This document shows, piece by piece, positions 4,261 through 48,864 of a stretch of DNA of 64,000 nt. The notes beneath the pieces were generated by a model, which saw only the letters and a list, made by a program, of their open reading frames with translations, was not told the origin of the DNA and did not search any database. The translations under genes and the position numbers were made by a program. Source of the stretch: an uncultured Lachnospiraceae bacterium (GTDB taxonomy: Bacteria > Bacillota > Clostridia > Christensenellales > UBA1242); assembly GCA_964432825.1 (NCBI GenBank), contig CAYSOX010000004.1, positions 26,126-90,125 on the forward strand. Direction: 5' to 3'. How positions within the stretch are numbered: position 1 is the first letter of the stretch; each line of letters opens with the position of its first letter.

Positions 4261-4288
4261 CTTTTGGAAGTTTTTAGGCTTCCAAAAG
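4261..4288 (-). terminator. Terminator-like hairpin just downstream of the giant ORF
   Basis: CTTTTGGAAG (4261-4270) pairs with CTTCCAAAAG (4279-4288) across an 8-nt loop, 32 nt past the TAA at 4320-4322. On the minus strand only a weak U-tract follows (AGUUUAAUAU). The plus-strand side is T-rich, so it may act in both directions. Confidence 0.45.
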
Positions 4289-4319
4289 GTTTAATTTTGT
4301 TTTTAATACAAGTTTGAAT

Positions 4320-7300
4320 TTAATCAAGGTTTGTAGTGTAGCCAGAGATTGTAGAGGTTATTTTTTTAGGTGTTCGAACTACGGTTGCTGGTGAAGTTCT
4401 ATTGCCTTCAATAAATCTAGTTGCCAATTCATTTGCACAATAGTTTGGTAGAAACATTTTTGCCAACGTGCAAAGAGTTAATGCACCAAACACAATCTTT
4501 AATACAGTGCCAAGTTTGTTTACAAACGATTTAAGTTGAGAACCGATTGTAAAGACTAGTACAGCAGACGCTACGATTGTTGAAAGAACACCTGTGCCCA
4601 GTACTGCAGCCCATTTTACTAATGCAGCAGAGACACTGGTGAATGCTCCGTGTGAAATAACTGCAATTGCTATAGCTGCGACGATTATTATAACGACCAT
4701 TACAATGGTAATTATTTTGTTAACCAATTTTTCGCGGTCGATTATCTCATCTACTTGACTTTCGGTTACAAAAGGCTTGCCGTCTACTAGAATTTGGACT
4801 TGCCTTAATGCGATGCGGTTGTCTGGAACATCTCTATTGCCTACGGTACGAGTTTCTTGGCTAGTAAGTCCGTTGTCGGTATTATTTAATATAATCTTAT
4901 TTACTAGTTTTGCAGAGCCAGTTGAGAAATTGAATAATGCTTTTTCACCGTCTTGATCTTTGATATCTTTGGTTATTGCGATGTAAGACTTAATAGTTAA
5001 ACTATATGAGTCAAATTCATTCATTCCGTATCTTGTGGATGTGAATCTAGTTGCAGCATTTTGGTCTCCGGTAGAGTAATAGTTTGCTCCGCGGGCAGAT
5101 GTGTTTGATAGATATGGGAAGAAGTATCCATACCAACTAGACATTTCCATTGAAGATAAGTAATCGCTTAAACTTTCACCACCGGATTGAGTTAAGGTAA
5201 AGTGAGTATTAATGCTGTTTTGAGTAACTTTTACATCCTTTTTGTTTATAGAATTGTTAGTATTAACATAATAATCACTAGAAATGTTTTGGGTATAATA
5301 GTAGCCCATAGGACCTGCTGAAATATCTTCGTTACCATCAACTCCTGCGTATACAAGATTTACATCGGCTTCGGCTAATGCATCGTATTGTTCTTTTAAT
5401 CCTTCAACATTTTTGTATTCTTCAGATTGATAGTTAGAGTATTCGCCTAATTCAACTTGTTCTTTGATTTGAATATCTGTGATTATGAAGTCATTGTAAT
5501 TTGCACTAAGGTCACATTGAAGAAGTTCGAATGCGGATAGAACATAGGTGGTAAGCTTGGTTTGAACTAGTTCTTGCCATTCGGCTCTTGTTTTGTCGTC
5601 AATTTTATAGTTTTTGAATATTTCGCCGTATGCTTTATCGATGCTATTGCCACTGCGGTCTGTCAACGAATATTCAACATATTGGGCATTAAAAGCTCCT
5701 CCATCTGAATAGAAGTTGTCGGCCTTACCTGAATATCCATTCACAAAATTACCTAATAATACAGCCAACAAAGTATTTGGATCGGTTATCATAATTTTAT
5801 CATCATCTTCCCCCCAATTATCAATGTCCCATTTACCAGGGGTAATGCTTCGGTCGTAAGCGTATAAGTCATGATCCCACCACAATTTATTTTGTTCTAG
5901 ACAGTGTTCAATTGCCCCAGTAAGCATTTCTAGATTATCACACTTTTTAATAATTTCGTTTATAGCGATAGTATATTTATCTATGTTGTTATAGTCATTT
6001 GTAAATGCATTAAAGGAAAGGTTTGTTATAGCGTATTCCGTGTTTGCAATGTCCATATAGTAATACAATTCAGGTAAATTTAATAATGCTGTCTGAATAT
6101 CGGTTGATGTAAGTGTTTTAAACAAATCATCGGTTGTAGTGCCTGAGTTATAAATTGAAATACCTGCGCCGGTAGACAACTTTGCGCGTTGAAAGAAATA
6201 TGTTGTTTCTTCTTGAGCAAAAGGGGTTTTTAATATATCAGCATCGGTATAGTTAGGGCTTGCTGGGGTTCCAATTTTTTCGTCTATTGCAATTCGTGTA
6301 AATACTTTAAATGCAATTTTTTGAGCACCTTGCAATTCTTTGATTTCAACAATTTGCCCAATATACTCTGCCCCTTGACCATTTAAGATGTTTAAGATGT
6401 CTTGATATTTATTACTGTTTTCACTTAAGCCGTAATATTCAATGTATTCGTGATCTTCTAAACCTCTTGTCTGACTAAATGAACACTCAAATGCTTTACC
6501 CCACATGTTGTCCATGTCGGTAAATCCTATTGCTGGTGCAAGATGATAGTAGTCAAGAAGATTACTTGCAAGAGACCTGTTATTACTATAATATTGCGTT
6601 GCATAGAGCATTAATGGCCAATATTTTAAGCAAGAACGTTCAGGTTGGTTATAATATGAACTTCCGACATAACTAGTTAAATCGACATCGGTATTATGAT
6701 TTTTAATTGAAATATATGACAATGCGGTATTATTTTCTACTGAACCATTTTGAATTGGATTTGTTAAATTTTCAAAAAAGTATGTTAATGTATTGTTTGC
6801 AATATTGTTCTTTGTGTTCACTTTATAGTTGTCGCTTAAAAGTGAGGTAAAATCTAGGTACATTTCATAAGAACCGTTACCATTGTTTTTATTTGAAATT
6901 TCAAATTGAGATAATAATTCTTTAAATCCTGCAGAGAAATAATTCATAAAATCAAGGTCTGAAGATTGTTTTTCAAATTTTAAATGAATGTCGTTAGTTT
7001 CATCTTCTTTTATAGTTCCATCACTGTCTATATATTTTAAGTTTTTATCTCCGCCAATATAGTTTACGTTTGAATCTTCATTAGGGTCTAACCAATCTTT
7101 AAACAATTCAGACCATTTTGCAGTGTATGTATTAATATAACCGTTAAGGTTTATGAAATTGTCTTGTACAACACCAGAGCCGGCAGGTTTGTTTATGAAA
7201 GGATTTTCCGTTTTGGAAACCGTAAAGCCTAGAGTTTGTAAATCATAATAGAAATATGTATATTCTAACACGGCGGTGTGAAGTTTTTCGTCTGGGGATT

Positions 7301-40300: not shown

Positions 40301-42233
40301 AGTAACTTGCTGAATACATATTGTATGGGTTGCCGACATTTGATGATGCTCCACCTAGTAAAAAGTCGGTTAAACTTAAGCCGTAAATGGTGAATTCTCC
40401 ATTTGTGCCGGTGGATACCAAAGATGGAGCGTTGATTGTGCCTTGCTTTACAGCGGTTATCCAAGTTGAGCCGGAAAGGGTTCTGGTGTATACATTTAAG
40501 TCTAAGCCGGCTAGTTTTGAAAGTCCGTTGTCTCCGTCATATGCGGTACCTTTGATTGTGAAATTTTTAACTTTGGCATAGTTTGCTTTGAAGATATTGC
40601 CATGGTTTGCGCTGTTTGAAACTACGGTTAGGGTAGAGGTTTTTGCATTTTTGTCAATGGCTTCAAAGTATAGATATTGATTGCCCGTTCCAGAATTAAG
40701 CGTGGTTTTTATGGTAGAGCCGTTCTTATAATAATACTCACCAACGGCTGGGCGGACAGAATAAGTTAATGGCTCGTCTGTTACTGGTGAGCCTAAAAGG
40801 GTAAGATAATTAAGGTCGGTGGAAACGAGTTGATTCTTTTGGTAAACGAAATGTGCTTCAGCATGAGCATCTGAAACTAAGCAATTTGCACCTAGGTAAT
40901 TGTTGCTTGAGTGGTTGGCAAGGTTGGATTCTTCCAAAATCTTTAGTTCGCTATTGCTTAGTGGGGTTCCGCTGTAAACTTCATTGAATGAGGCATTTGG
41001 TTCATCAGATGCATTTAAAACGGTGGTGTCAACTTCGCCACGGTAACTATTTACCGTCCAACTTTGTAAGGCGTAATTTCCGCTACTTACAGAGGAAATT
41101 TCATTGCCCGATGCAAGTGTGCCTGGGTAGGTTCGGTTAACTTTTACTTGGCGACCTACAGGGAAGTATCCGGTAAGGCCGGTGGTATAATTTGCTTTAT
41201 TTTCTGAACTATATGTGGTGGTTTTGCTGAAGAAATAGAACTTGTCTTCTAAAACTCCGTTGTTGTTTACTTTTTCGGTAGAAAGTTCGGCAAAACCGAT
41301 TTCTGAACTATTTGAACTATCAACCTCAAAGGTCAATTTTGAGGCATTATATACTAATGTATTAGATAAATTACTATTTCCATATATTTGTGAGCCTTCT
41401 TGAACGATACGGCGAACCTTTAGAGTACGGGTTTCTGAGCCGTTTTCAAGACGAGGGTTAAATACCACGCGGAATTCAATTGCGTTGGCATAGTTTTGTA
41501 ACTTATCTTCTTTTACAACATATTTATTATCACTTTCATCATAATGAACTTCCGCTCCAGTGATAAGATTTTTTACTATTAAGCGGTATTCTAGGGAGAT
41601 GTATGACTTATCTGCTGTGGTCTTGGTGGTGGTGCCATCAAGGTTGGTGGTTACAATATAGAAATCATAATCCGAAGAAGTAGGGTAGAATTTATTTAGT
41701 TTGCATTCGTCCGCACGCGAATTGTTAGAGAAAATTAAACCAGAAGATGCGGTAATTCCGAAACGAGAAAAAATCTCATTGGTTGCAACTATTTCGCCGG
41801 TGGCTTTTAGTTCGTCTTTAAAACGAGGTTCAAAATATACACTTCTGCCATCAACGACAATTTGGTAGTTTGCCCAACTGAAACCTGCCGTTGCTCCGCC
41901 TACTACATTTTGTGCATAAGGATTATCAACAAAAGTGATGGAGCCCGTTGTTTCATCCGTTACCGGAATGGATTCTCCATTTGTATTTGTTATGTATTTA
42001 TAACTATTATGCACTAGTGTGACTGGGGTCAGCAGTGTTCGACCGAGGCTATCGGTGTCTGCGGTGGTGGTGTTGCCGAATAATGCCTTGCGAACATCAG
42101 CCGCCGAACAGCCGGTAAATGCCGTTAAAGATAAAAGTACCGCAAAAATAACAGCCGTATACTTAAAACTGTTTTGCAGTACTTTAAAACTTTTCCTTAC
42201 TAAATTTTTGAAATTACTTCTTTGGTTTGCCAT
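4320..42233 (-). CDS. Giant (12,637 aa) predicted cell-surface protein with an N-terminal lipoprotein signal, an internal Flg_new-like module array and a C-terminal membrane anchor
   Basis: A single frame is open for 37,914 nt in AT-rich DNA. ATG 42233-42231 is preceded by GGGAG 6 nt upstream. The N-terminus ends in ...TAVIFAVLLSLTAFTGC. At least 13 F-x-G-W/F-Y motifs follow the spacing typical of Listeria-Bacteroides repeats. The C-terminal ~140 aa hold 3-4 hydrophobic helices. A promoter and a terminator hairpin flank the ORF. Confidence 0.9.
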   Translation of the reverse strand: MANQRSNFKNLVRKSFKVLQNSFKYTAVIFAVLLSLTAFTGCSAADVRKALFGNTTTADTDSLGRTLLTPVTLVHNSYKYITNTNGESIPVTDETTGSITFVDNPYAQNVVGGATAGFSWANYQIVVDGRSVYFEPRFKDELKATGEIVATNEIFSRFGITASSGLIFSNNSRADECKLNKFYPTSSDYDFYIVTTNLDGTTTKTTADKSYISLEYRLIVKNLITGAEVHYDESDNKYVVKEDKLQNYANAIEFRVVFNPRLENGSETRTLKVRRIVQEGSQIYGNSNLSNTLVYNASKLTFEVDSSNSSEIGFAELSTEKVNNNGVLEDKFYFFSKTTTYSSENKANYTTGLTGYFPVGRQVKVNRTYPGTLASGNEISSVSSGNYALQSWTVNSYRGEVDTTVLNASDEPNASFNEVYSGTPLSNSELKILEESNLANHSSNNYLGANCLVSDAHAEAHFVYQKNQLVSTDLNYLTLLGSPVTDEPLTYSVRPAVGEYYYKNGSTIKTTLNSGTGNQYLYFEAIDKNAKTSTLTVVSNSANHGNIFKANYAKVKNFTIKGTAYDGDNGLSKLAGLDLNVYTRTLSGSTWITAVKQGTINAPSLVSTGTNGEFTIYGLSLTDFLLGGASSNVGNPYNMYSASYSKLDYAGNIKGLAVANEKATNGKTFGDKTGVSIIATTKDQNSNLNVNLIVKDNDGKFVSIEDCDIDISYELISAISSDPDENGYVTTDVLLSTLLPTDHRLTGYNIQTFSNSDCKLVYFDPVNQKTYELIASKKVSGSGDSDGYIYTLKESEIPVGTINTASGLKIEEIDIVQLNNETLYSTETTIDKKNYKFHFDYDILVKFDTTQDANKFYNKLVALRKSNGKNDEAGLDATISGNVVYLNKDRIVATKNVDDTYSLYYVVVTKKESENSKEVCFDLDRSSGADNANYMDVRDYIYIQPSFNFEFTELNLKISGTDESIYYSFTTQDPIKAFHTVTENETTTIVPADIKLKDLSPFSNSDKTLTILDIKTGDSSSIDSLNELDNPTNLTAKTVYIANNVTEKSVENDLTTATKVVELTFERDSEQQKMYLTFEGFNLTRVTEDGSTCHYISYNSNNIKRAVTNFKSPYIIKSATPKSSTPSTKVLQISLTDEAIKNGKSLYEFGLFNSTEAKNLTSVISEISKSNSITNYYYNILRNDFILEVYAPGNLKPRYLQAIWEGPSGIYSFHDVTAQISGNSFTSSEILLTAYETYEDVSGNTYFLRKSANGLTFAPSADNAEGYRTTIILKNTKVANTISFTTIDGKSLKLRLNANSPTYYTYTTNYFDKLKLDDSGNSVVDSALSMSENSSNANIATEAENRAIINIKLADGKSINAYQLMEENIYKYDGTEKKDKNIFYGDIKLISTNTTLLGVDALNSLTKYYSFRDEENSKTYLVAEVGSRIPHGSSGYTVKYIYCLLGQIADAEKDDTYTQYINTENKIILFEKSDDSVDIKNNYTTGTGINSLIYENKGKSSSELNNLISKINDNIKVNGSISSEIAINTFFNPLSQNSYYDMSNTAPAVDTLVKSKLTYVYQETDGSLSTIVLETTSDNGTTSTSYLINGMYAIDYANIDEINIASTPRFVTEVNITTDEGTIKALAYVTYIRTSITIKLYVLANSSVETTTDGTTTTNTTDYAFSLSNGRYTALAGYLTSLDITKTESSEFNVSNFNNSSNETTKVETILFKEDDSNYKRYKYDSTLGLYVLDKEYIDGKNELNDSNFSCLNLPLLYSSTSTLSFKIGYGGIYALENKTNPSITFTDNTFVSTSSIGKTSFTAKEISISKISYIRGTAQSFEMESSTDNISNYTFNLKDSRGNLVETINAFKFRGTDEYVTFNSSLTKVTEHNVSIKNTADLTEGSNKTETDSVFKNTLPDENTVISIFDKDSSCSHKGNWILEGVTFSTTATNSSTSIICYVYPSDLKANSVNLTFSFNGETYTTTLYKTTRLESGKTQKAITTADGKALNFFDCENGNADEFGTDTGLETGHRYFVYNTTLKTLPTDLKDRNQTSLLSSYIADTNSSFYYQIILDENATIVGFRKLSGVKTTTLDGDSNQQVILLKNGVAQFTYDYFILDGNVSVTDTASSVSLSVDNSLCTEITRNIYLYYDLETVKFRTKIGSEFVTRSYSFFTSVIGETSDGSDIIYFGQISNFADRLFKLNETSQNSLANRNFTNFEELAAALNISAYDVDNDNDGKSIIKGDTLLAVGKAIQYLFNSFENNNSDIYLNYNSTLSHIYRFYRLMGAKIDPAYYYYFKPVEVSNGISAYITQEKVNANESILETVYFYKGSNGENIEFNGHVYSEKDYSSAKIIQTLVSYNNDGTTNTYYIAKESTGEIGLYAKLDSTTGTLSGKIEDIRLSLSTSGNIFGTQNAVIRESDGSFTNVEYTTYFIITGADNGKLCYAVNDGTSTRYYSSIEELVYNENANDPSAETKYTEVIHQDGSYYDASTISVDHYEYSLDGGKTYHIAYFDGTDYYSDLHAEYKAIINGNEITVYRDADGNYYKSRTAWGYQQKLDSELIDLVKIGNDYYTASELDYYLLQTTESGKDVVIYNNRTYSKSAQYITTQINMLLNPALDYRTFSDDILFASPYTIYNMARYNGRTFIAGVGTASKGGSHFYSFDLDADDDTTEYFNYRIYLMNNIIYISFADVTVTDSNLNTLITENKLLPLNELVEGKEIIIALYDETGARKTDDDNNLVSTTFKVTKEFLDAISTSGQRVDLVDGEEVTIDILNDQNYPYISNVLCVFEADKIGIWNDTIDKVTPSLVSDGIEYGNYTKIHKVNGNYYQTLINTYRLTDDQLSEIPASYTIYYQLCDVNVNNNTVSLIEKFNSVSDLINSINRLVSEGKTPDYIYSLVELAEYDLPSGLTASVLATVKDNQPVKQYLNPVDAKYIQYAYSSKVGHGLTEGVNLKVNYTLTNLVIDASTSVIDSVEVNGNTLTTTYNDGTKVIRTINANSYHLIDLITINGKKLGDLASTGKAEIKTYYDYTALHKLSYAEVQSILPILSNELALTENDVTDKVVYSSDGTARGLDGSLTETYKFVDPITNITYFNLEKAPNDNITANIYKYNKLGLLEKVEEAYPSSFAYRFKFDDNLNIYNYISTSGDYLYYTTFDASDGVDVANGYILSSGFSNGTQLVYDYSSLVQLIYLDTSTGTEYTAHYFANDGTTIHNASLQTGVNFNTIYYGLVDGKRTALTGVVNSRSYSKTTYVRTAYAYETNQKIDILGKSIMTATEPIIYPSFYSSDVNAEVENGFITDWSNYYTIDYTTAKTSKYGLPGVTVLDGAPYPNTVISFSVRHLQDDNQNITLGLRIEPVYSVELGGIITDISGSNLATPDATYAFKDTETNIDQNKYPDQIIAVTDKTSYEPLYGSYPYSLANSSIYSPVYLTPNGTLASNSLTLMNFEHKMITSMDIAEILTYALVDNSGNAVDSTLTDRNSMSNFLVYDESLVLLRDTTQTTSTIGSGMNVHEQSTKSDNFRIKIDGRYYYYTIGENYDPNEYTTYDQLSANKYSYYLHYATPLESIPANANVYDYTKVNLSAQLDSGTITSVYFEKVKLKTPAEDTIVSPEGYPYYVYTTAVADNFQPYAFSSDWIDNSSKDEANSLRSRLYADYYMDGNTNNTEHYTRLTRSHYVYNAITDCFHEIVYSSTNAPCYKYNYNWWTSSYTEISNAGTLDVHTYNVRPDGSILLTSECNTEAICGALENLDKNSVIEYGTLVISGITSCYRTGIGEKVSDKAKDYEGLYAGFPYSIKNAMLATSNFFTVGSEQVIFVTNPNIVIEEGDTSVVYRFKEWGAYTRYNSEILYKAGDIDIQGRNNSTFTFSSDQAKYYVFLPIYERVFSLTTSTITTDGVKSNGGVITTYYTDGSRVKADTETIADNTDDIHFIEYISSGEIELTDGSGKTELTYDYDKMTIENYVFTTEYQYFADTSVGTATNNMSAFFVDSYTNGALNAGTKATDTNVPYMVEQEIGNSNLSIGYVNKVTGLNTEVYNIPGVNYGVIKAGTQSRYAYYLYSLTTSADGKREIYPINFSNGRYYFVLDQNGNYINGQESYYYQVTKDKPKSQSNNTPYKNIEGYNFTYNTNGAIPYALKSEDSILAPTIDTNGEFKASYNTLQSGRQTFVYYLNIVEYDFEDGYSNAHYKMSTAKQAEHELELAKRTSGIQDIDLISTRFVEQIYNTKKTSSQGSEMLPVILSSIYFDVYKYSIETEKNDNGKVITHHYLSKRQDGIKFARKIVNTATFVPVITGESRTKQWFISADVYHTGIDETYLTQYFDRHTSIKLQANSDDGYRFEGWYFATYNIATGEYVIQKDEFGDDKKISSDDYRGYVDEIKRVEYDEITKQYKIVTGFGANGKPIYQTDINGNPEYVPAGLENLYSGKFLTYMVTANGTIQDVEYKPSTGLFYSTDQKVITQLNGGKIIAIQVYTKSSSSAYYYDFNCTQVVPTTYLKYIDLDNALKNFSTSDLAQYKLSTTEQTFNYNTGNKTTENLGNGSTSFTEYAPKFKFEDGSGKAPSSYILNGDRFVSPINNGSLEIGDKLENGGILNVGKYSISYHTANFNENASFTNSYNYYYEQTVELEDGTTETELHQIGYSLTYTNYSSLITIATKEYQSIDGSMQEVSNLTTSLPLPSSLTLIPIKKASSTETSYLFKINGQLASSVSLTYSIKDANGKDNDCCILTLSCGDENGVTITLTNMDGESFADNNVSIQDQQNLNSILKVGGSAKISKTNYSYVSTQTLFTRLGIIYNDLDLTNASGYELKTDLKYTLSAQKVDYNTENGGYYYEICFYNEVMNPFTTSNAGYKITQKAETSNEVVITAYSDVGLIKISDIAVSSDIDESTGSFKSLYTKDRQLLTYGVEDYITFLVGEENGLTVGSYYILDENGNYVETESVRTLYYCKKDEKLYYFGFSEPANYAMFTLPTAEILGETSKEDSASNGNCYQLKAFINSDTEVYMHQGKLYRERRQGLYEIDEYGNLLINGIAENVCIIAKFVESYNSLIFTDTGNSSGITIDSIYYANYADNSNAYVTDNEGYLVNKSDAKTIDFGNLLSAYKVGTDAITYITRTIKGSTYYVYTAESVDGSSYFIYSPVNLSDGTSTTNDLLNSSSNHYSRANSTSFDKGRTYDSANISDLSLNESTISQLQSSEYLKNITLADGKTKAYTTNVNDYTQSMVKKYGYPITSKGINNPINGTSLTVSLLDGKNISGSRIPLTYVNRGIYVDSNTSLFVTVKVNSKFKLNASYTTNPYYTLNALMYPTDEFIDENKLNENEAGKRYYEEFYYLFAVTFNRDSLNEYAEYMTQISRGISMMFDTTTANTDTFETLLAQNEQNGLEALKNLSVNPNGSYKGVKGETYYEFIQPSNYTIEKLAGTNHYYSKLSGSFMTKTYSLNTTNYTLYILANDLKDNKTTTLSGFDYNTANTSTTAHYTLAGTPIYIKVTQGGRDLSTFRNYLQSAYDFAFDPDNYTRVECDSQIFVTGSSSRATSSIIISDVELQKYAKYYAQLKDISENLLDGTPLASIKAELEVLHINDLYSKYTTNELLKSTNRVSIDSYIKDSNLSSANGVFYNFNKSFADLISSKDNNGNPSYDKSLATDYLLYAFNSVIKPTSSVANLENMFNYMVNEEKDFLDLLKLLSPSDLATQIEQYAQKSNADLNSLNIGAAYENMYNTAKKFIIIRLAGISAVAFGNMQLTGVSGKDTAVYRFFKLNKDGTRNYLDSPDLPNKYFKYTEGTTYTEETKDRIYYDDSTESVGYKNTTTLDGKTVYTLDTLSYYKGSNTTENTFAKILSLSKDRWSELNKIATIYEKIAKIFKVSPKKLQEFTATDFNNAFRTLTSNELLLCFKNIYTGANYTSSEALGYFNYLTEMYSRYSKANNAITSTLEENYTTSGQLNILRFSSILVYSLDLQHELLNFNSQTGKYENLSSVITEGEDEVNFTKIEEFFAGLGQNDVTVLSIPTTIDKNLLAKYYKLYGANKEHLGQEEFSMLTDEIYTEYLKLVELYASNFDELSYFNTSKIRNAYYSATSQYRQMIISADTIFTARAKLLANVGDSAKRDALNVQNTSTDYYTVVTLSDGSDYNVRFAGWYYANKSNLEEITTSFENMTQVGSGEYSPLIAMQNNQSLIALYRTFEWWSITYNPNESQISLSISHDCFGNPLSRTTNADGTVTIAGYLDTGTTVDITLTPLGGKAYQKVVAGFIENIQKYFTEFTNQDHFAKLEQVALTIQNKTDDIQSENVISTRTLRYRVAGTNNNLTNFYTEDVTSSQFVKQNSNIVLTFEEYRNSSISKGTENDLYIITEDAQLVAFKISNTLTSRLNNDTQKDVLSDLFKYHISYEKDGVLKSFTLNEYYKFEGNAIDEFGQLMQVNKSTDYEYDVDLGSIFTLYIFGYFKAGTTVSISAEAVSGTTNSSYLDGWYIDGNEDKAVQDEHGASLKLLDDQTAHVFEATYDTGASSLQVNVTIVNGDYDYTQKSLNPTAFTTLSATQKALIQELFNAISSSTNGLALNYGENGRRIEGSVPVQDPGSTIMLANTALVKDLGSLTTKGLTILNHTLENNGFTTLNFNMRSIFTLSTPEYVISDTTLEDGSVETKIFKFVGWYTVNPATGKTVKVSSNSVYDAGRHLEGRIDAVYELLTDTTLGSVLEYTTTDSESGEQISVIDNENTLGLNSLGYLVVSSASTGENINNVPESINSRYDYTYNRLPLGSYFNLEASAPAGYKVIGLQYSYITTNASETENVLEQKYTYHNGSTTAFNVQLTQNADGSLTLKVYHIDNKGRKVDISPSLEEGCSLTKLVSINAIFAESPSINLTYTLHSREFYNEVAFAGSTDINNLRDSSNGEAIKSNKKFNVLSMSYTDEATKYKQTYSGFVKYDFTMGEDYAPTTLITPISNRKNYITISNPILLISDTNPDSTLVEANTRFVGWYINNTLISTNKFDELQIMLDYTLTTEKKITVIVKNQYGEKSEPITLDWTTDINIDMRYSNEDSTAIEPIVSEGANGFSVIQVIGDTKFDPSKLTAPSETEDQKQELYDSETGEPLINEETGEQQIATIPSLKNQLLQKYGKFNANLSVEFNGTTSYVPEYYFTTTGAVGTESDLTAKTTGDYYIYGIYSAVKTTITNENGEVETFYSLEKLDADSEFTLTTSSIKVSHFAPKTYYIVYKPIEVAGDDYAVNFGVITTHNGEIQDTSKLNSSNVFITLDTDNNTSFTTASLYASADYTRFKQIHDGDRNYVVYQMGGRNIQTEELSIGQATFHKDPTEVNGNIVTGSNVKFSVDNTKNFLGFYQNGILISRDSEVSVAVADGDIIEARYYSAIRNFKLKSLINDGIYNTSIAPSISEVEGKPKQIVAVVENGYGSTRGLNVYSTSDSEISLIEAYGKGSTLLLTAPRELQSTANPTDIYYLDGFYYKTRNGLTRLTTTTLTERPSNEVEFKIETLPEGVTDIYVLYNKTSRVTVTIQTDGIDDLLPNGFVDISHAFGSYDLIQREENFTISTLNSSNYSLSILHTYYENGNKVTALHTPTATITTRYEADGTPRITKELTGATKKENDGTNFNYSATIRIVEGENEVKYILTNLNSVNINTYFSYYDTITTTPSPSIINGKTVLEATPTIRVQNSQGQSETLKFVGWYKVEFDENNIAKDEILVAYDNSLTISTQNFSEGETLTLIKKYDDVGNNNLSPSESRIYANIYNKDGSFVTVDDTDDTPAEDSLLQGLSLTFDEAGTTCTLDATEYLKRAENDGLAFVGFYKNSILLSTASTFSYTVSKNVAQVIEARFTRANVEVFVSQNENTSLSTTFTLLSTRTPLIKNGAQTEANAYGYVYSNQDLTISATLPKGYILSETNTSLKVGGTEYAGENLFRIINNEKGSTSATIVIPYTTLSKIIEEKPQGVSLEVIVGFETYKFEHEDISISFGDFTSGSLTLDTDYKEISETFTIDEENDFTISQRYRLLDYIINLTPEEIVDEDFSYNVYYYYYNPYVQSQTNEVVNSEDGTKYDSRTNEKTYTFTDGETTSTRASSPLVLTQQMMSEGQNSLTIVLPYGSVVYSFTQVLKKNNHNYGKFLSRVYTLEKDGESETNKDINPIYTTEQQMVTLTTEHFKIYTDNENSSNLNFDKYYHVYTRITDDPRYEDMRFYSSEIYLSELEDIRTTNYLALYLNGLITYQEYRENIQKHEHSKLVSYGKPLSTEDPYASYYLSIFGDANEFVETKKTSDDSPAYNPENFKTAVDENSGTILRTLGGGTYFDKNAYSTDKETVKALGKYYVYASNGYIITSVKFVPIKQIALYGEDNAKTEEASFTYTLQDKEAESLAGKNKLNGVELNTETATDTFLCFENVSADYFIYVTLKEVFSVETQIVLDGNVLSTDNESILNAGSSVKFQLNFNNYEPTVTEVEFKEGLESLIYANKKDFQFDQSLTEDWYNISGDITSSYRLTNITISTKNVQTATFYLKDYVSIYELTQAVYNYSLTEDGKFKYNTVIALNYASSSDRGLIKLEEIKTTNVGVLESEFGRSQTAMSETLKTKLETANLLPTINEYSIGSINSLVQITAYEVEGYKFIGFYDQNENLYSSSLVTTAKLENVQNLTAMYEPDYNVVILNFSKLNAIAGYPVKILVSGTGYTFMTKAFVLKQNGLRTETNAGIENISTIPSSDRTMGIKVVENPSICLGDDLSKLNSIGKYDGRGLIVLYIPKSVESPQVTVTVDSVNYDQVINKSIGVNGNISYIDVSDTDPTNGLTITTDRNNAKQDAGSPIYAIFDNKMTDNRSNTYTFNLSDDTQNTFGTLFRKLYRTEITIVGSTDLISEYGKDGKEVVVKYLTTSGLNGSTSLNSTNPKDMIIGVTTEEGELVSMWIELDGTHLDDFYGWHFLTQRNSTPHNSLDLSLMNNLNIDYVEVGLPDENTLSYNGKKYNYIGAIQVLSINQSVNAYLSELTDELLLSYKDGGTVRYFELNSKKIEEIDASEVKTIRTSFYLQDSEYLLDLTHITFAVDSENSYSISLSYTDGTYILTIKDDNKVTAIETHSFTNLTEFNNLTIGEKVFAGLDLTSNTFEKIVNTTKELVENLINHTTRFGVVDIKALQTAIDELQTTVSGNNFVPAITSLEEIASYLIYSAKVNRLTTSTLTLRSLAQSEVTNTELESIVSKIQNSLTSGKINVDVLTSNFEVIDIELKPDNSIAEYVSFYKDSNLEYNFDQNFSSTISACLKTINGEADFTDYGNSFKLFGNYLANSNDENWNNINWEKLASILTHATDNTTYVTAPSADTMYFADITGYFNNRTTKQLTLVWGNDLANVSLTPLGEKNQPITDKSLVNLFTTPTFGYNQPTTLVTKPVQLYENGELVIKEIEVEEIKNITPKTNATGVIAMTYSQNLLDNAISFVAFGYFKQGTILSIATRGVLNTSGASYYGHTNTIVSGIDQISQTVTKYELDDAEEEIEITPLAETETPEETETPEEGENPEGGEAETPKLPLTMKEVPTTIVSTSTKKLDILKTYYVFFGNYSTSTSTFYKTEDTSEANIEHILNVRTIFGINVDDGAYAINRDAVTVSEIDFTNYRVFLEQLGNLADLGFVEEFKASKLTAEQEAEIKDGTLEKDPYLAVYAPFSAIFIDLKACNTYIAYAKGNKSYSDAESELQNLLVAGEIDESNASLEKILNKLKTIQTLAYRYSLDLNSTLDYGYNFINEATSNEPQTTFIASLSTSSSSTYTSGDQMLVTAPQKNGYYFKGIRVIYRLTDSPSLQLSLQSVNSRNNTSFNASNSIFFDATAPNGTNWIKNADNSYSLYLDISGNNRSSLVIIALYEDILSPVEINLKEYNSSRYLVEETGEYIETSNIFYKTSNDDWKPAYVNDANGKFYSSIKYEDDKVINSSDLYAKIIVDEIESYKKVTFAPYTDEESYSGYIRGSRLTGASTPLALTSVNYPYAEFAGWLFTNEQSETDLKTGDTQQTAEINGKTYYMYKLNTGKKDATSSFHYSLNSDNSNYLYRTENLENNTPITNHHTYFKDGKLFYAYKYSLSKLQNRYDSTTASGILEDMNIYLQNKLFNTPLDVFYINASLDEISTYFSNGAISDDARTKGLEIGTISSTGELVTIPLLADNTNDVYFTGVFGIGTYRGETVNKLNQIVEYTDESTTAQNVFYSTSPLTEQSSYADRTFYTYINGEFVNVRNILKEKYTLQTGVGKDVYVYNDFLEDLTPILRDSVSVKYTQSSLTYEYDSLTYYMYSFGNTFENILETVVEEYNDNVDELNQGRDDANKVQVIELSDLIEKLKVVLKDSDYLEDILNANDSFTFNDSQIEELMQSEYFFSLASSKNSIDLIETGGYLIYNGHFVDIWFAISYAFDEFINELSHPTSDAFIAELQSYMQKASKQIQTTTFSYTNISDGSIYLSGADKYTTAQNYLTSITDKLNSGEYSSITNDKIIGNAKDSDHIDEYQNILPYVAYKIGSTTPVTENVKFLNITNDTHLTFAYGNDTISGNLPDNNDNYSLSSIREFLVSVISAEQTYSVAHKYLQIGSKSTFADNTTYFVHTSNGAFGYNYVVYQNGYATYIITTTSEGLTYEIKYKTDTPITITQIKNAPSFKTLLQGSTSSPVSTFVQDYTYQTTQDYSKVTVAQAGKLESGKVQGYFMYAQDKAFTTLSAKLKGKTTLNAYFRPASYILEIVINETDQTYDALNGVVDEYISFKDDLLEFDETANDGNGEYKNVGVEPNNDLGKHYFELDSTKQKIQTYELKDGVFQESDSISVDEIKSFIYDINGNLINSYNSIYAVASATNETYTNLSATPSSAYIYAGGMYFNGANSARNDSEFYKLATYRSSKYEQTYVFCKVLSQQVEQDEENGLHFVYDYKTKEAHHPFSNASDNSVYVMLFNGDTNYNGRQYKIVKLTADAFNSYTLKSSVSDVNEYVNADGSINSDRIQVNTSDSSKFQMDFIKEIDNAITSITADTIGQGIQGGKTNFYIRAKVTATPSSGFPAIQILLNAGTDYTDGLQRNSALFYAGYSKPEGFAKIDETKFAYGNYKAFNNVIVPDEYGNVTSSAYDVIVNVGFTVRAIALEIELNADGETSSNTGFLDKSTYEKETNKYSVETVSDLLNTLINYAKNDEMDKYNELSNYLSNMFSTYNIYKFKGANAYLSQIDEFQNILSAGSGSNLDAVGENSGDNAKKAFNNLLNNYNVLDQNKLLERMNKNMERDRNNPDTTLGKLFIAYKNGLDIPSEDITPPKDDDSSDYITLLNETLTNWRSNAAACYTDKDGKAPEPSDESNYPGAYRYYQLLEEIDYIFNDLDSQNNILDLPKNTLGIINIPRISVEVTKLYTENETQMMELSVNYGENTEVINTANLPLSLIVDTPAVPTPTPTPGKTEEELQEEDYNTFQTFLLKLSAENSKKEQYEELCTYYYLTSALELYIESQTQCAFYNKSGEYSPDQKYAQFDKNKGYYVYTDEFNDKINGYLAVLSVQDYLNNFSSYYNAVLYNIITAYANYKSDTSDTRAYKTYKNELMAAYLAYGLVFNDNTFTSGTIVFFDPSTYGTEDDVHTTIQEVLGLTYDQLRTQNYETLGRYVNAYSDALQDSNNSIALKDMNGSPVTIGFSVIDLVKSVATYSYIESPDEKLHTAVLEYTYFYYDLQTLGFTVSKTENPFINKPAGSGVVQDNFINLNGYINTYTAKWSELFKDWLDPNEDSNVNYIGGDKNLKYIDSDGTIKEDETNDIHLKFEKQSSDLDFMNYFSAGFKELLSQFEISNKNNGNGSYEMYLDFTSLLSDNYKVNTKNNIANNTLTYFFENLTNPIQNGSVENNTALSYISIKNHNTDVDLTSYVGSSYYNQPERSCLKYWPLMLYATQYYSNNRSLASNLLDYYHLAPAIGFTDMDNMWGKAFECSFSQTRGLEDHEYIEYYGLSENSNKYQDILNILNGQGAEYIGQIVEIKELQGAQKIAFKVFTRIAIDEKIGTPASPNYTDADILKTPFAQEETTYFFQRAKLSTGAGISIYNSGTTTDDLFKTLTSTDIQTALLNLPELYYYMDIANTEYAITNLSFNAFTNDYNNIDKYTIAINEIIKKCDNLEMLTGAIEHCLEQNKLWWDHDLYAYDRSITPGKWDIDNWGEDDDKIMITDPNTLLAVLLGNFVNGYSGKADNFYSDGGAFNAQYVEYSLTDRSGNSIDKAYGEIFKNYKIDDKTRAEWQELVQTKLTTYVLSAFELLQCDLSANYNDFIITDIQIKEQVELGEYSNYQSEEYKNVEGLKEQYDALAEADVNLVYAGVDGNEDISAGPMGYYYTQNISSDYYVNTNNSINKKDVKVTQNSINTHFTLTQSGGESLSDYLSSMEMSSWYGYFFPYLSNTSARGANYYSTGDQNAATRFTSTRYGMNEFDSYSLTIKSYIAITKDIKDQDGEKALFNFSTGSAKLVNKIILNNTDNGLTSQETRTVGNRDVPDNRIALRQVQILVDGKPFVTESQVDEIIDREKLVNKIITIVMVVIIIVAAIAIAVISHGAFTSVSAALVKWAAVLGTGVLSTIVASAVLVFTIGSQLKSFVNKLGTVLKIVFGALTLCTLAKMFLPNYCANELATRFIEGNRTSPATVVRTPKKITSTISGYTTNLD
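4323..4740 (-). other. C-terminal membrane-anchor region of the giant protein (3-4 predicted TM helices)
   Basis: Hydrophobic runs IITIVMVVIIIVAAIAIAVI, AALVKWAAVLGTGVLSTIVASAVLVFTIG and LGTVLKIVFGALTLCTLAKMF, followed by a short basic tail. Confidence 0.7.
42108..42233 (-). other. Signal peptide with lipobox of the giant protein
   Basis: MANQRSNFKNLVRKSFKVLQNSFKY (basic n-region), TAVIFAVLLSLTAF (h-region) and T-G-C, with Cys42 encoded at 42110-42108. The -3 residue is F rather than L, so the lipobox is slightly atypical. Confidence 0.6.
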
Positions 42234-42286
42234 AACTTTCTCCCTTTTAGCATTGGTGTTTTATTATGTTTTTATTACAAAAAAAA

Positions 42287-42478
42287 TGTAAATGGCAAGC
42301 AATTTTGAAGGGTTGTGATTCATAGTGCGAATCATGGGTTTCCCATATGGAGTGGGAAGGGTTGTAAAATTATTTATTTTTAAAGATGTGTCGCGGCTTT
42401 AAAAATAAGAATTGTTTTGAGATTTACCAGTGTGAACAATTCAGAAAGTCACTGGAATTTCGGTACTTGCCATTTACA
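42287..42478 (-). promoter_or_regulatory. Structured 5' leader of the giant gene, closed by a perfect 13-bp inverted repeat
   Basis: TGTAAATGGCAAG (42287-42299) and CTTGCCATTTACA (42466-42478) are exact reverse complements 166 nt apart. Inner hairpins include CCAGTG/CACTGG and TGATTC/GAATCA. The distal arm starts about where the predicted TSS falls. Confidence 0.5.
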
Positions 42479-42484
42479 ATATAT

Positions 42485-42513
42485 ATTATATATATTAGCG
42501 AAATAAAAAGCAA
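42485..42513 (-). promoter_or_regulatory. Sigma-A-like promoter for the giant gene
   Basis: On the minus strand: TTGCTT (42513-42508), a 17-nt spacer, then TATAAT (42490-42485). It lies ~250 nt upstream of the ATG. Confidence 0.5.
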
Positions 42514-42587
42514 CTAAAATTCGCCATTTTTCGAAATTATTTGTGAAAAAAAGTGTGAGGATAGGGGATTAGGTTTTGTGAGTGATA

Positions 42588-42653
42588 CCCAAACCGAGTG
42601 GAGTGAGTTGGTTTCGCCCACCTACCCGAACCGAGAGGAGTGAGTTGGTTTCG
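42588..42653 (+). repeat. 29-bp direct repeat pair (37-bp period)
   Basis: CCCAAACCGAGTGGAGTGAGTTGGTTTCG (42588-42616) and CCCGAACCGAGAGGAGTGAGTTGGTTTCG (42625-42653) match at 27/29. Each contains an AACC...GGTT inverted pair. Confidence 0.8.
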
Positions 42654-42723
42654 TGAGGGCTGGATTGATGTGTGTTGTGATTGGTTTGTGGTAGAAGATT
42701 TGATGGTTTTTTGTGTTATTTTA

Positions 42724-42855
42724 GTGGTTTTGTTTCTAAAACTAAATAAACCTGCTGGGGGTGAGTTGATTGGAACGGCGAGGATGATTGGAGGAAATTT
42801 ATTATAGGGCTATATGCTTGTGTTGGTTTGCTGGTTTTGTTTCTAAAATCTAACA
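42724..42855 (+). repeat. ~113-bp intergenic repeat, copy B (about 1.5 tandem units)
   Basis: 42724-42775 matches 587-639, and 42776-42855 matches 526-609, in the same orientation. This copy is therefore a circular permutation/tandem form of copy A. Confidence 0.8.
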
Positions 42856-43104
42856 TATGATGATGCTGAAAATCCTAAGATTAAACAAATAGATTATGGG
42901 TTTATTTATAACTATAAAAGTGATTTATTACAGAATAAACCTGCGGGGAAGGAAGTTTGCGGGAGAAAGTTTGAAATTTATAATATCTCAACATCGTTCT
43001 CCATTGCCAAATTTACCTATAATTTGTAGGGACGGGGCTTTTGTTCAATGGGGGTATTGGGGTGTGTGGAAAAATTTTTAAAATTTCTTAATTTTGTGTT
43101 CTTC

Positions 43105-48818: not shown

Positions 48819-48864
48819 ATTAACCTCACTGTTGGTTTCGAACCATTTTACATAGTCAAAAATA

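What the first reader, a model, noticed from the sequence alone, without database searches (positions are those of the whole stretch)
4320..42233. One uninterrupted 37,914-nt ORF encoding a 12,637-aa predicted surface protein
Seen: one minus-strand frame is open from ATG 42233 to TAA 4322-4320 in AT-rich DNA, where stop codons should be frequent. A GGGAG RBS, a TTGCTT-N17-TATAAT promoter and a 10-bp terminator hairpin bracket it, so it looks like a single monocistronic unit filling ~59% of the window. The product is N/T/S/Y/D-rich. By eye I see no long near-identical tandem repeats, unlike classic Ig-repeat giant adhesins. I also see no LPXTG and no catalytic motif such as HExxH. Established: proteins above 10,000 aa are very rare in prokaryotes and their viruses. 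Inference: a largely non-repetitive mosaic surface fibre or adhesin of unknown function, lying 7.5 kb from a phage terminase gene.
Basis: partly seen in the sequence, partly recalled or inferred. Interest (0 to 1): 0.92.

Follow-up and report, generated by a model that had tools for sequence, protein, structure and literature searches.

The report
Giant membrane-anchored surface protein gene
The 38-kb gene is real and encodes a 1.4-megadalton, almost repeat-free cell-surface fibre of a gut Clostridia bacterium. It belongs to a family of giant lipoproteins that always sits next to a phage-derived capsid gene cluster inherited together with the host chromosome.

Summary
The ORF 4320..42233 (-) is confirmed. 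It has 12,637 codons, an ATG start with a GGGAG ribosome-binding site, and a TAA stop. The other five frames carry 750-1085 stops.

The product is acidic (pI 4.6), beta-rich and almost free of internal repeats, with no credible Pfam, PHROGs, NCBIfam or PDB sequence match. Its N-terminus is a lipoprotein signal peptide whose cysteine (C42) is invariant in 17 aligned homologues. Its C-terminus has three transmembrane helices. The best-modelled part (aa 60-375) resembles Gram-positive pilin and adhesin beta-sandwiches.

Homologues occupy the same position in Clostridia gut and rumen genomes. They are also giant:
- Three are uninterrupted for 4,317 to 5,274 codons up to the edge of the data.
- One pair gives dN/dS 0.13.

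The neighbouring "phage" is a podovirus-like TerL-portal-MCP-tail-holin cluster. It lies beside RNase J in 24 loci and diverges in step with it. That fits a domesticated, GTA-like element better than a mobile prophage.

Best reading: a Sec-exported surface fibre or coat anchored in the membrane at both ends. Its exact role (adhesion, shielding, or a link to the particles) is inferred only.

It is a new variant of a known kind, because giant Clostridia surface proteins are already reported.

The parts
4320..42233 (-). Giant ORF: 12,637 codons plus TAA. Predicted product 1.41 MDa, pI 4.6.
42240..42244 (-). GGGAG ribosome-binding site, 6 nt upstream of the ATG. Conserved in relative L107.
42108..42233 (-). 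Lipoprotein-type signal peptide, aa 1-42: basic n-region, hydrophobic core AVIFAVLLSLTAF, lipobox F-T-G-C. Cys42 is invariant in the 17-sequence alignment A2.
41109..42056 (-). aa 60-375: confidently modelled all-beta region (pLDDT 85-95). Its fold matches Gram-positive pilins and adhesins (TIE protein, PitA, SpaA/SpaE/SpaD, BcpA).
39810..41477 (-). aa 253-808: N-terminal region conserved across the family, 24-30% identity in about 20 relatives.
30465..32519 (-). aa 3239-3923: best-conserved internal island. Motifs: YPSF..DYT..G[FL]PGV.L.G.PYPN....FSVRH..VYSVE..TYAF[KR]DT.TN; VISG.TS.YR; YRFKEW..Y.RYNSE. Fold unknown.
   Evidence: structure prediction failed
26157..29327 (-). aa 4303-5359: three further short islands (4303-4433, 4993-5083, 5255-5359) colinear with relatives. 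Beyond aa ~5360 BLAST finds no similarity to any relative.
12219..29375 (-). aa 4287-10005: 11 scattered, very divergent ~80-aa modules with an F-x-G-W/F-Y motif; a 12th lies at aa 2014-2062. They give weak, sub-threshold hits to the InlB B-repeat / Listeria-Bacteroides repeat families.
4449..4715 (-). aa 12507-12595: three predicted transmembrane helices (IITIVMVVIIIVAAIAIAV; AVLGTGVLSTIVASAVLVF; VLKIVFGALTLCTLAKMFL). This is the C-terminal membrane anchor.
4323..4448 (-). aa 12596-12637: short basic C-terminal tail, predicted to be cytoplasmic.
   Evidence: topology is inference
4261..4288 (-). Terminator-like hairpin with a 10-bp stem, 32 nt after the stop. The T tract is weak.
963..3674 (-). 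Downstream gene, 903 aa counted from MKKSIKNLKR. Lipobox signal (..SVLAC), T/S-rich ectodomain, C-terminal TM helix and a low-complexity tail. Weak homologue of the 450-900-aa signal-peptide plus TM proteins that occupy this slot in relatives lacking a giant gene.
42234..43878 (.). 1.65-kb non-coding spacer between the giant gene and the divergent regulator gene. It holds several short direct-repeat families.
43879..46302 (+). Regulator gene, 807 aa. Only the C-terminal ~140 aa are homologous to the ~207-aa sigma-70 region-4 (ArpU-like) protein of relatives.
46416..48893 (-). Membrane ectoprotein, 825 aa: N-terminal TM/signal, a conserved ectodomain with G-Y-[VI]-Y/D motifs (SH3-like by eye only; no Pfam match), a TM helix and a tail. 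aa 97-376 are conserved in 27 loci, where the protein is ~334 aa.
49751..51196 (+). Large terminase subunit.
56867..58954 (+). P22/SU10-like portal protein.
60815..62032 (+). Major capsid protein (phrog_14242). It is 57-72% identical to copies in at least 80 Clostridia genomes.

Best explanation
**What it is.** The ORF is a real, selected gene of a gut Clostridia (Christensenellales-like, single-membrane) bacterium. It encodes a giant cell-envelope fibre.

**How it is built and placed (inferred from the anatomy).**
1. The Sec system exports the protein through a lipoprotein signal peptide.
2. Lgt and Lsp lipidate Cys42 and cut in front of it, so the mature N-terminus is lipid-anchored on the outer face of the cytoplasmic membrane.
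3. About 12,460 acidic, beta-rich residues follow. They form a chain of roughly a hundred mutually very divergent small beta domains. These are pilin/adhesin-like sandwiches at the N-terminus, with 12 InlB-B-repeat-like modules mostly in the middle.
4. Three C-terminal transmembrane helices and a short basic cytoplasmic tail hold the other end.
5. The result is a huge extracellular loop or fibre anchored at both ends, which could reach well beyond the wall.

**Where it sits.** The gene is one member of a family of giant lipoproteins that occupies a fixed slot. It is transcribed divergently from a podovirus-like regulator-TerL-portal-scaffold-MCP-tail-holin cluster. That cluster lies beside RNase J and diverges with the host, so it is most likely a domesticated, GTA-like element.

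**Likely role (inferred).** A surface coat or adhesin that binds particles, host glycans or other cells, or that shields the envelope.

**Shown:** the ORF, the export and anchor signals, family conservation, purifying selection in relatives, the pilin-like fold of aa 60-375, and the synteny.

**Inferred:** lipidation, topology, the domain count and the biological role.
For: **The ORF is real.**
- Statistics: 0 internal stops against 750-1085 in the other frames.

**Export and anchoring signals.**
- The signal peptide and lipobox are present in all 16 relatives examined, and Cys42 is invariant in alignment A2. L110 and L111 carry the lipobox too.
- The only hydrophobic segments are aa 27-45 and three helices at aa 12507-12595.

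**Fold.**
- AlphaFold2 gives pLDDT 85-95 for aa ~60-375, all beta.
- Foldseek top hits are the B. anthracis TIE protein (E 1.5e-6), PitA, SpaE/SpaA/SpaD and BcpA.
- There are 12 F-x-G-W/F-Y modules with weak Flg_new / Flg_new_2 hits.

**The family is giant and under selection.**
- L107 is colinear over aa 1-4239 at 39-45% identity in one frame.
- L110, L111 and L112 are open for 5,274, 5,161 and 4,317 codons up to the edge of the data.
- L111 and L112 are 98.7% identical, with dN/dS 0.13.

**Genomic context.**
- Relatives lie in Clostridia / Christensenellaceae MAG contigs of 100-700 kb.
- Gene order is conserved.
- Holin, then RNase J, lie downstream.
- RNase J is adjacent in 24 loci, and its identity tracks that of MCP, TerL and portal: Spearman 0.62, 0.72 and 0.66 respectively. 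MCP stays at 58% identity or more where RNase J is only 40-50%.

**Precedents in the literature.**
- A podovirus-like GTA in Faecalibacterium and GTA-like packaging in Christensenellaceae are reported (PMC12946183).
- Giant 10-30k-aa Clostridia gut proteins with Listeria-Bacteroides repeats are reported (10.1101/2023.11.21.568195).
Against: - There is no expression, lipidation or localisation data.
- No homologue reaches its C-terminus in the data I could fetch, so it is unknown whether the C-terminal anchor is conserved.
- Only ~3% of the protein has a confident structural model. The conserved island at aa 3230-3920 could not be modelled (pLDDT 29), so a catalytic or binding domain could be hidden there.
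- Foldseek TM-scores are low (0.1-0.27), because multidomain chains superpose poorly.
- B-repeat hits are below Pfam thresholds.
- Two relatives carry one interruption each (a TAA in L107 and a 1-nt frameshift in L109). These may be sequencing errors or real breaks.
- Co-divergence with RNase J could also arise from a site-specific prophage that co-speciates with its host, or RNase J could itself belong to the element.
- The window ends before the expected RNase J position, so the synteny is not shown for this genome itself.
- Part of the T/S/N/Y-rich composition may be driven by the extreme strand bias (GC3 skew -0.65 on the coding strand) rather than by function.
Confidence: 0.68

Rival explanations
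1. Cargo ('moron') of a mobile temperate phage. The giant lipoprotein would be expressed from the lysogen and act as a superinfection-exclusion or receptor-masking barrier. This would be a greatly enlarged analogue of phage lipoproteins such as Ltp or Llp.
For: - The gene is on the strand opposite to the late genes, with its own ribosome-binding site and a terminator-like hairpin. That is the usual layout of lysogeny-expressed morons.
- In relatives without a giant gene, the same slot holds a smaller membrane ectoprotein, flanked on the far side by an SSB-domain gene. That could be read as a phage replication module.
- The family evolves much faster than the capsid protein (25-30% against 62-72% identity), as expected for a surface protein in an arms race.
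- A holin and tail genes show that the cluster is complete enough to lyse cells.
Against: - The cluster lies at the same chromosomal site next to RNase J in 24 loci, and its capsid, portal and terminase identities track the host gene.
- No integrase was seen in the flanks I inspected, though this was not an exhaustive search.
- There is no close relative among 50,697 deposited phage genomes. MCP is at most 31% identical, and aa 1-3000 of the giant give no hit at all.
- A 38-kb insert would nearly double the DNA that a capsid of this type has to package.
- There is no sequence similarity to any PHROG.
Confidence: 0.15
2. A functional accessory of the GTA-like particle system. The fibre would be the docking receptor that captures particles on recipient cells, or a shield that stops particles re-binding to producer cells. 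It would be co-regulated by the adjacent ArpU/sigma-like regulator.
For: - The gene is strictly adjacent to, and divergently oriented from, the regulator-TerL cluster in every giant-bearing locus: 15 genome loci plus metagenome contigs.
- Two further membrane ectoprotein genes are interleaved with the cluster and conserved with it.
- GTA-like packaging has been reported in Christensenellaceae (PMC12946183).
Against: - Adjacency is the only evidence.
- Many relatives have the cluster without a giant gene (28 loci have only the 450-900-aa protein), so the particles do not need it.
- No regulatory site shared between the two promoter regions was identified.
Confidence: 0.12
3. A structural or injected component of the phage-like particle, for example a giant fibre or internal ejection protein, by analogy with the giant virion proteins of N4-like and crAss-like podoviruses.
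For: - The gene is close to podovirus-type head and tail genes.
- Podoviruses are known to carry very large virion proteins (my own knowledge, not tested here).
Against: - A conserved lipoprotein signal with an invariant cysteine, together with C-terminal TM helices, points to Sec export and membrane anchoring. That is incompatible with assembly in the cytoplasm.
- The gene is on the strand opposite to the late operon.
- There is no PHROG or viral-fold match of any strength.
- At 1.4 MDa it would hardly fit a small capsid.
Confidence: 0.03
4. Not a functional gene: an assembly chimera, a decaying pseudogene, or an antisense ORF kept open by the skewed base composition.
For: - Strand composition is extreme.
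- It does create long spurious ORFs elsewhere. For example, public gene calls in L001 picked ORFs antisense to a conserved gene.
- Two relatives carry one interruption each.
Against: - From the ORF's own composition a stop is expected about every 15 codons, and there are none in 12,637.
- There are no repeats that could mislead an assembler.
- Homology to relatives is colinear and in frame over more than 4,000 residues.
- dN/dS is 0.13 in a pair of relatives.
- The start, ribosome-binding site and signal peptide are conserved.
- The N-terminal domain is confidently foldable.
Confidence: 0.02

Closest known systems
Giant (10,000-30,000 aa) predicted proteins of mammalian-gut Clostridia (West-Roberts et al., bioRxiv 10.1101/2023.11.21.568195)
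   Same: Same host class and habitat and the same size range. These proteins are presumed to be extracellular and to bind surfaces, and Listeria-Bacteroides (InlB B-repeat) type modules are mentioned for them.
   Different: Those proteins are described as built from recognisable repeated domains (RCC1, Listeria-Bacteroides repeats, YG repeats, dockerins, LRR). This one has no Pfam hit above threshold, is almost non-repetitive, is anchored by a lipobox plus C-terminal TM helices, and is linked to a phage-derived cluster. I could not compare sequences directly.
Gram-positive sortase-dependent pilins and MSCRAMM/TIE adhesins (SpaA/SpaD/BcpA, PitA, B. anthracis TIE protein)
   Same: Chains of CnaA/CnaB/Ig-like beta-sandwich domains that project from the cell. 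They are the best structural matches to aa 60-375.
   Different: This protein has no LPXTG sorting signal and no Pfam Cna/pilin domain hit. It is anchored by lipid and TM helices instead of to the wall, and is 20-50 times longer. TM-scores are low.
Giant secreted proteins of 'Hodor' conjugative megaplasmids of gut Bacillota (PMC12934698)
   Same: Very large (7,300-7,700 aa) signal-peptide proteins in gut Bacillota, on megaplasmids that also carry prophages.
   Different: The Hodor proteins carry S-layer and MBG domains and are proposed to be sortase-anchored. Hodor GC content is 44-47%, against 36% here. No sequence or context link was found.
GTA-like or domesticated head-tail clusters of Gram-positive bacteria: FpGTA of Faecalibacterium (PMC12946183) and PBSX of Bacillus subtilis
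   Same: This concerns the neighbouring cluster, not the giant gene. It is a compact TerL-portal-scaffold-MCP-short-tail-lysis set, near-ubiquitous in a host clade and not mobile. FpGTA is podovirus-like, and GTA-like packaging has been seen in Christensenellaceae.
   Different: Homology to FpGTA was not tested, because I did not have its sequences. Random packaging of host DNA is not shown here. No giant lipoprotein is described next to FpGTA.
Phage- or prophage-encoded lipoproteins (Ltp of S. thermophilus phage TP-J34, Llp of T5, cp32 Erp/Rev) and unimolecular spanins (T1 gp11 type)
   Same: These are lipobox proteins encoded within phage-derived DNA. The u-spanin shares the unusual topology of an N-terminal lipid anchor plus a C-terminal TM helix (my own knowledge; cp32 lipoproteins appear).
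   Different: Those proteins have about 80-400 aa. A spanin bridges two membranes of a diderm cell, whereas this host is a single-membrane Clostridia. There is no sequence similarity.

Membership tests
Bacterial lipoproteins (Lgt/Lsp substrates) | N-terminal signal peptide with a basic n-region and a hydrophobic h-region, ending in a lipobox [LVIF..][ASTVI][GAS]-C | tested here: met
   The window protein ends ..AVIFAVLLSLTAF-T-G-C42. All 16 relatives end in ..[FLV][VAST][AGS]C, and C42 is invariant in alignment A2. The cysteine lies at position 42, later than the usual 15-35.
Bacterial lipoproteins (Lgt/Lsp substrates) | Actual diacylglyceryl modification and cleavage by signal peptidase II | not testable with these tools
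   Needs globomycin sensitivity, lipid labelling or mass spectrometry.
Sortase-anchored Gram-positive adhesins and pilins (MSCRAMM, Cna-type) | C-terminal LPXTG-type sorting signal followed by a hydrophobic segment and a basic tail | tested here: not met
   There is no LPxTG or LPxTA anywhere. The single NPATG at aa 6643 is internal. The C-terminus has three TM helices instead.
Sortase-anchored Gram-positive adhesins and pilins (MSCRAMM, Cna-type) | CnaA/CnaB/Ig-like beta-sandwich domains | tested here: inconclusive
   Foldseek hits to TIE, PitA, SpaA/E/D and BcpA have E-values from 1.5e-6 to 1e-3 but TM-scores of only 0.1-0.27. No Pfam Cna or pilin domain is found. Only aa 60-375 were modelled with confidence.
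InlB B-repeat / Listeria-Bacteroides repeat proteins (Pfam Flg_new PF09479, Flg_new_2 PF18998) | Match to the family model at or above the gathering score | tested here: not met
   Best results are Flg_new_2 at E 0.064 on the long piece and 0.006 on a single module, and Flg_new at E 0.015. Each family is matched by only 2 of the 11 modules, and all scores are below the cut-off. The shared F-x-G-W-Y motif in 12 modules makes a distant relationship plausible.
Tailed-phage virion or moron protein families (PHROGs) | Sequence match to any PHROG family | tested here: not met
   No families at E <= 0.01 for any of the three pieces. tblastn of aa 1-3000 against 50,697 phage records found nothing.
Gene transfer agent / domesticated prophage (for the adjacent cluster) | Head-tail-lysis genes at a fixed chromosomal site, inherited vertically with the host | tested here: met
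   RNase J lies 6-9 kb downstream of MCP in 24 loci. The identities of MCP, TerL and portal correlate with that of RNase J (rho 0.62-0.72). MCP stays at 58% or more where RNase J is 40-50%. This is not shown for the window itself, which ends at 64,000.
Gene transfer agent / domesticated prophage (for the adjacent cluster) | No preferential self-packaging: random host DNA fragments smaller than the cluster are packaged | not testable with these tools
   Needs sequencing of DNA from purified particles, as done for FpGTA in PMC12946183.
Gene transfer agent / domesticated prophage (for the adjacent cluster) | Absence of integrase, excision and replication genes | tested here: inconclusive
   None was seen among the ORFs scanned. 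However, an SSB-domain gene flanks the slot in distant relatives, flanks are limited to 10 kb, and the far side of the giant gene was never reached.

The most novel reading that the evidence does not exclude
The giant lipoprotein is a dedicated partner of a vertically inherited, podovirus-like GTA system of gut Clostridia. It would be a hundreds-of-nanometres-long, doubly anchored surface fibre that captures particles on recipient cells or repels them from producer cells. It would have grown from an ordinary membrane-protein slot to 12,637 aa by runaway, non-duplicative insertion, in a lineage whose extreme strand bias also inflates the neighbouring genes.
Probability: 0.12. Interest if true: 0.85.

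Novelty: new variant of a known kind. Interest (0 to 1): 0.66.

Why it matters
**A different kind of giant protein.** Most giant bacterial surface proteins are long because one domain is repeated many times. This one reaches 12,637 residues with almost no detectable repetition and no recognised domain, yet its relatives are under clear purifying selection. It is therefore a large reservoir of uncharted protein folds, and a test case for how very long genes grow.

**An unusual way of anchoring.** A lipid anchor at one end and three membrane helices at the other is not the usual design for a Gram-positive fibre.

**A testable link to phage-derived particles.** The gene has a fixed position beside a phage-derived capsid cluster that behaves like a host gene set. 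This ties it to the newly recognised GTA-like systems of gut Firmicutes, and it offers a concrete gene to test for a role in particle release, uptake or protection.

**A practical warning.** Public protein databases hold only fragments of this family. Searches of 5.8 and 1.8 billion proteins returned only pieces of at most 3,125 aa. Such genes are therefore systematically invisible to routine annotation.

Tried and rejected
**Searches that failed or found nothing.**
It then found nothing for aa 1-1200 or for island alignment A6, and only one 596-aa fragment for alignment A2. Its 8,000-candidate word filter seems to be saturated by this composition.
- Pfam, NCBIfam and PHROGs on all pieces, and PDB phmmer: no credible hit.
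- A PDB profile search with the 11-module alignment gave only chance hits.
- IMG/VR pattern scans with aa 1-3000 and with the 807-aa regulator found nothing. tblastn of aa 1-3000 against GenBank phages found nothing.
- A metagenome scan with the C-terminal 1,100 aa found nothing, so C-terminal conservation remains unknown.
- AlphaFold2 on the conserved island aa 3230-3920 with a 3-sequence alignment failed (pLDDT 29).
- The Foldseek search of viral structures gave only weak, generic multi-Ig matches.
- No tRNA and no Rfam family were found.

**Ideas rejected.**
- *That 46416..48893 (-) is a spurious antisense ORF.* It is conserved in 27 loci. The public + strand gene calls there are the spurious ones.
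- *That the region is a Hodor megaplasmid.* GC content and domain content differ.
- *That the protein is a spanin.* The topology is the same but the size and the host envelope are wrong.


Full report

Yes. The ORF listing reports one ORF at 4320..42233 on the minus strand, 12,637 aa with an ATG start. My own translation shows a single terminal TAA. The other two frames of that strand have 977 and 1016 stops, and the three plus-strand frames have 750-1085. From the ORF's own base composition a stop is expected about every 15 codons, so an open run of 12,637 codons has a chance probability near e^-858.

- The composition is T/S/N/L/Y/I/D-rich. The product is 1.41 MDa with pI 4.6.
- GGGAG sits 6 nt before the ATG, and the same AAAAGGGAGAAA(G/C)TTATGGCAAAC start region is found in the closest relative.
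- The 10-bp hairpin after the stop is there, at 4261-4288.
Promoter-like matches in this spacer are no more frequent than in shuffled sequence.
- There is no LPXTG and no HExxH.

**2. Repetition**

Self-BLASTP of 300-aa chunks gives nothing better than E = 0.001. Tandem Repeats Finder finds only arrays of 21-40 nt. An iterated profile search, starting from each of 209 windows of 120 aa, finds a second region for only 16 of them.

The one recurrent unit I found is a very divergent ~80-aa module with an F-x-G-W/F-Y motif. It occurs 12 times, mostly between aa 4287 and 10005. Two of the 11 tested modules touch Pfam Flg_new_2 (E 0.006) and two touch Flg_new (E 0.015), all below threshold. The protein is therefore essentially non-repetitive at the sequence level, which is unusual for a protein of this size.

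**3. Known families**

- Pfam gives nothing credible on any of the three pieces.
- PHROGs gives nothing.
- NCBIfam gives nothing on either end.
- PDB sequences give nothing.
- GenBank phages by tblastn (aa 1-3000) give nothing.

**4. Anatomy**

- The N-terminus (MANQRSNFKNLVRKSFKVLQNSFKYTAVIFAVLLSLTAFTGC|SAADV) is a lipoprotein-type signal peptide.
- A hydropathy scan finds only this segment and three strong helices at aa 12507-12595. About 40 mostly basic residues follow.
- The implied topology, which is inference, is as follows. The N-terminus is lipid-anchored on the outer face of the membrane. A ~12,460-aa ectodomain follows. Three membrane passes then place the short tail in the cytoplasm.
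- A crude propensity profile is beta-leaning along the whole length.

**5. Structure**

AlphaFold2 was run on aa 41-820 with a 19-row alignment. It gave a confident all-beta region at aa ~60-375 (pLDDT 85-95), and the rest was poor.

Foldseek against the PDB returns Gram-positive adhesins and pilins: B. anthracis TIE protein at E 1.5e-6, then PitA, SpaE, SpaA, SpaD and BcpA. TM-scores are low, as expected for chains of flexible domains. The viral structure library gives only weak, generic multi-Ig proteins. A second prediction, of the conserved island aa 3230-3920, failed with pLDDT 29.

**6. Relatives of the giant protein**

*N-terminal homologues.* A scan of species-representative genomes with a capsid-protein alignment returned at least 464 relatives. 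The best 80 are nearly all Clostridia / Christensenellaceae MAGs from human, ruminant, rabbit and chicken guts, and many lie inside contigs of 100-700 kb. In 15 of these loci, and in one IMG/VR contig, a minus-strand ORF starts about 6.5 kb upstream of the capsid gene and runs off the edge of the fetched DNA. All 16 start with a lipoprotein signal (..[FLV][VAST][AGS]C). All match aa ~115-808 of the giant at 24-34% identity.

*Database coverage.* An exhaustive HMMER search of 1.84 billion representative proteins found only 26 hits, all fragments of at most 3,125 aa.

*Longer homologues, found by following these hits and by a metagenome scan:*

| Locus | What it shows |
|---|---|
| L107 | Colinear with aa 1-4239 at 39-45% identity in one frame, with a single in-frame TAA; reaches the contig end |
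| L109 | 1,700 + at least 3,753 aa, joined by a 1-nt frameshift inside the conserved YRFKEW\|GAYTRYNS motif |
| L110 | Uninterrupted for 5,274 codons up to the edge of the data |
| L111 | Uninterrupted for 5,161 codons up to the edge of the data |
| L112 | Uninterrupted for 4,317 codons, open at both ends of the locus |

*Selection.* L110 and L111 are 35% identical over their whole length. L111 and L112 are 98.7% identical, with 114 synonymous and 56 non-synonymous differences, giving dN/dS 0.13.

*Conservation against the window protein.* It is confined to colinear islands at aa 253-808, 3239-3410, 3668-3923, 4303-4433, 4993-5083 and 5255-5359. The window protein has about 2,300 extra residues between the first two islands. 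Beyond aa ~5360, BLAST finds no similarity to any relative.

*Conclusion.* The family is real, giant, fast-evolving and under selection.

**7. The neighbourhood**

- On the plus strand are TerL (49751-51196), a P22/SU10-like portal (56867-58954) and a major capsid protein (60815-62032).
- The gene order in relatives is: giant (-), sigma-region-4 (ArpU-like) regulator (+), a ~334-aa membrane protein (-), TerL, a small gene, portal, scaffold, MCP, adaptor-like genes, tail proteins, holin, DUF7934.
- The closest cultured phages have capsid proteins only 28-31% identical.
- Directly after the lysis genes comes RNase J, followed by a sigma-70 gene in L039, the one locus where the next gene was scanned.
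- RNase J is found 6-9 kb downstream of the capsid gene in 24 loci, and its identity tracks that of the capsid protein. Examples are 84/81, 82/81 and 80/78 % in close pairs, and 44-54 / 61-66 % in distant ones.
- Over 210 locus pairs, Spearman rho against RNase J is 0.62 for MCP, 0.72 for TerL and 0.66 for portal. The capsid protein never falls below 58% identity, even where RNase J is 40-50%.

A capsid gene that sits at a fixed site, diverges with the host and is more conserved than a housekeeping gene is what one expects of a domesticated, GTA-like element rather than a mobile prophage. A podovirus-like GTA (FpGTA) was recently demonstrated in Faecalibacterium, and GTA-like packaging has been seen in Christensenellaceae (PMC12946183). 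I could not test homology to FpGTA. The window ends before the expected RNase J position.

**8. The slot occupied by the giant gene**

In 28 more distant loci the same position holds a complete 450-900-aa minus-strand ORF ending in a TM helix. The members I inspected also carry a signal peptide, and two have weak NHL or SH3b hits. In two of the distant loci scanned, an SSB-domain gene lies on the far side of this ORF, and one of them also has a polysaccharide deacetylase gene there.

The window's downstream gene (963-3674, lipobox plus C-terminal TM) is a weak homologue of these proteins. The 825-aa gene at 46416..48893 (-) is a third membrane ectoprotein, conserved in 27 loci. So all three minus-strand genes around the cluster encode membrane-anchored extracellular proteins. 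The giant gene is a clade-specific addition to this set.

**9. How it most likely works**

*Shown:* the gene is real, it carries export and anchor signals, part of it folds like Gram-positive adhesins, and its relatives are under purifying selection.

*Inferred:* Sec export; lipidation at Cys42; a doubly anchored extracellular chain of about a hundred divergent beta modules; and a role as a surface coat or adhesin.

*Not resolved:* whether it serves adhesion, envelope shielding (including exclusion of phages or particles), or a role coupled to the GTA-like particles. I rate the general reading at about 0.68. The rivals are:

| Rival | Confidence |
|---|---|
| Mobile-prophage exclusion moron | 0.15 |
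| Particle-system partner | 0.12 |
| Virion component | 0.03 |
| Artefact or pseudogene | 0.02 |

**10. Comparison with what is known, and novelty**

Giant 10-30k-aa surface proteins of gut Clostridia are already reported, some with Listeria-Bacteroides repeats (10.1101/2023.11.21.568195). Giant secreted proteins also occur on Hodor megaplasmids (PMC12934698).

What is different here:
- the near absence of repeats and of recognisable domains;
- the lipobox plus triple-TM anchoring in place of LPXTG;
- the conserved placement beside a vertically inherited, phage-derived capsid cluster.

I found no description of this family in the searched literature. I file it as a new variant of a known kind.

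Noticed in passing
window 1-64000: Extreme strand asymmetry. At third codon positions and in intergenic DNA the + strand has far more G than C, whichever strand codes. GC3 skew is +0.17 to +0.53 in + strand genes, the equivalent of +0.65 in the giant gene, and +0.2 to +0.6 in spacers. This probably contributes to the T/S/N/Y-rich make-up of the minus-strand proteins and the G/E/S/K-rich make-up of the plus-strand ones.
   Followed up: partly
window 43879-46302, 46416-48893, 51749-54217, 54582-56342: Accessory genes of the phage-like cluster are inflated compared with relatives. The regulator has 807 aa against ~207, the membrane protein 825 against ~334, and the small gene after TerL 586 against ~123. 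There is also an 822-aa ORF seen only in the near-identical Logan contigs L001-L003. The extensions are low-complexity tandem repeats such as GKSEEMYGSV and GEVSEALGDSC.
   Followed up: partly
window 42234-43878; L107 1-658: A 1.65-kb non-coding spacer upstream of the giant gene holds several short direct-repeat families, for example GGAGTGAGTTGGTT x3 and CTTTGGCGGTTCAAAA x3. The closest relative has four copies of AATCGGGCAAACCA at the same place. These could be regulator-binding sites or an origin-like element.
   Followed up: no
window 46416-48893 (-) versus L001 3-1496 (+): Public automatic gene calls on an identical Logan contig chose four small + strand ORFs that are antisense to a gene conserved in 27 loci. 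This is an annotation error caused by the skewed composition.
   Followed up: yes
L025-L104 (e.g. L039 18537-20438; L034 20250-21194): The podovirus-like TerL-portal-MCP-tail-holin cluster lies next to RNase J in 24 loci and diverges in step with it. MCP is more conserved than RNase J at deep divergence. It is a candidate GTA-like domesticated element that is widespread in gut Clostridia.
   Followed up: partly
window 62277-62744: A 155-aa ORF just after the capsid gene has a weak HepT-like ribonuclease hit (E 0.005, below threshold) and no counterpart in relatives. It may be an inserted toxin-antitoxin remnant.
   Followed up: no
L107 10034-10036; L109 ~15050: Two relatives carry a single interruption of the giant frame. 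One is an in-frame TAA. The other is a 1-nt deletion in a TGG(G) run inside a conserved motif. These could be sequencing errors, recent inactivation or recoding; this was not resolved.
   Followed up: partly
L029 18541-19434; L031 18547-19653: A DUF7934 protein sits close to the holin gene, at the end of the cluster. By position it could be the lysin of this element.
   Followed up: no
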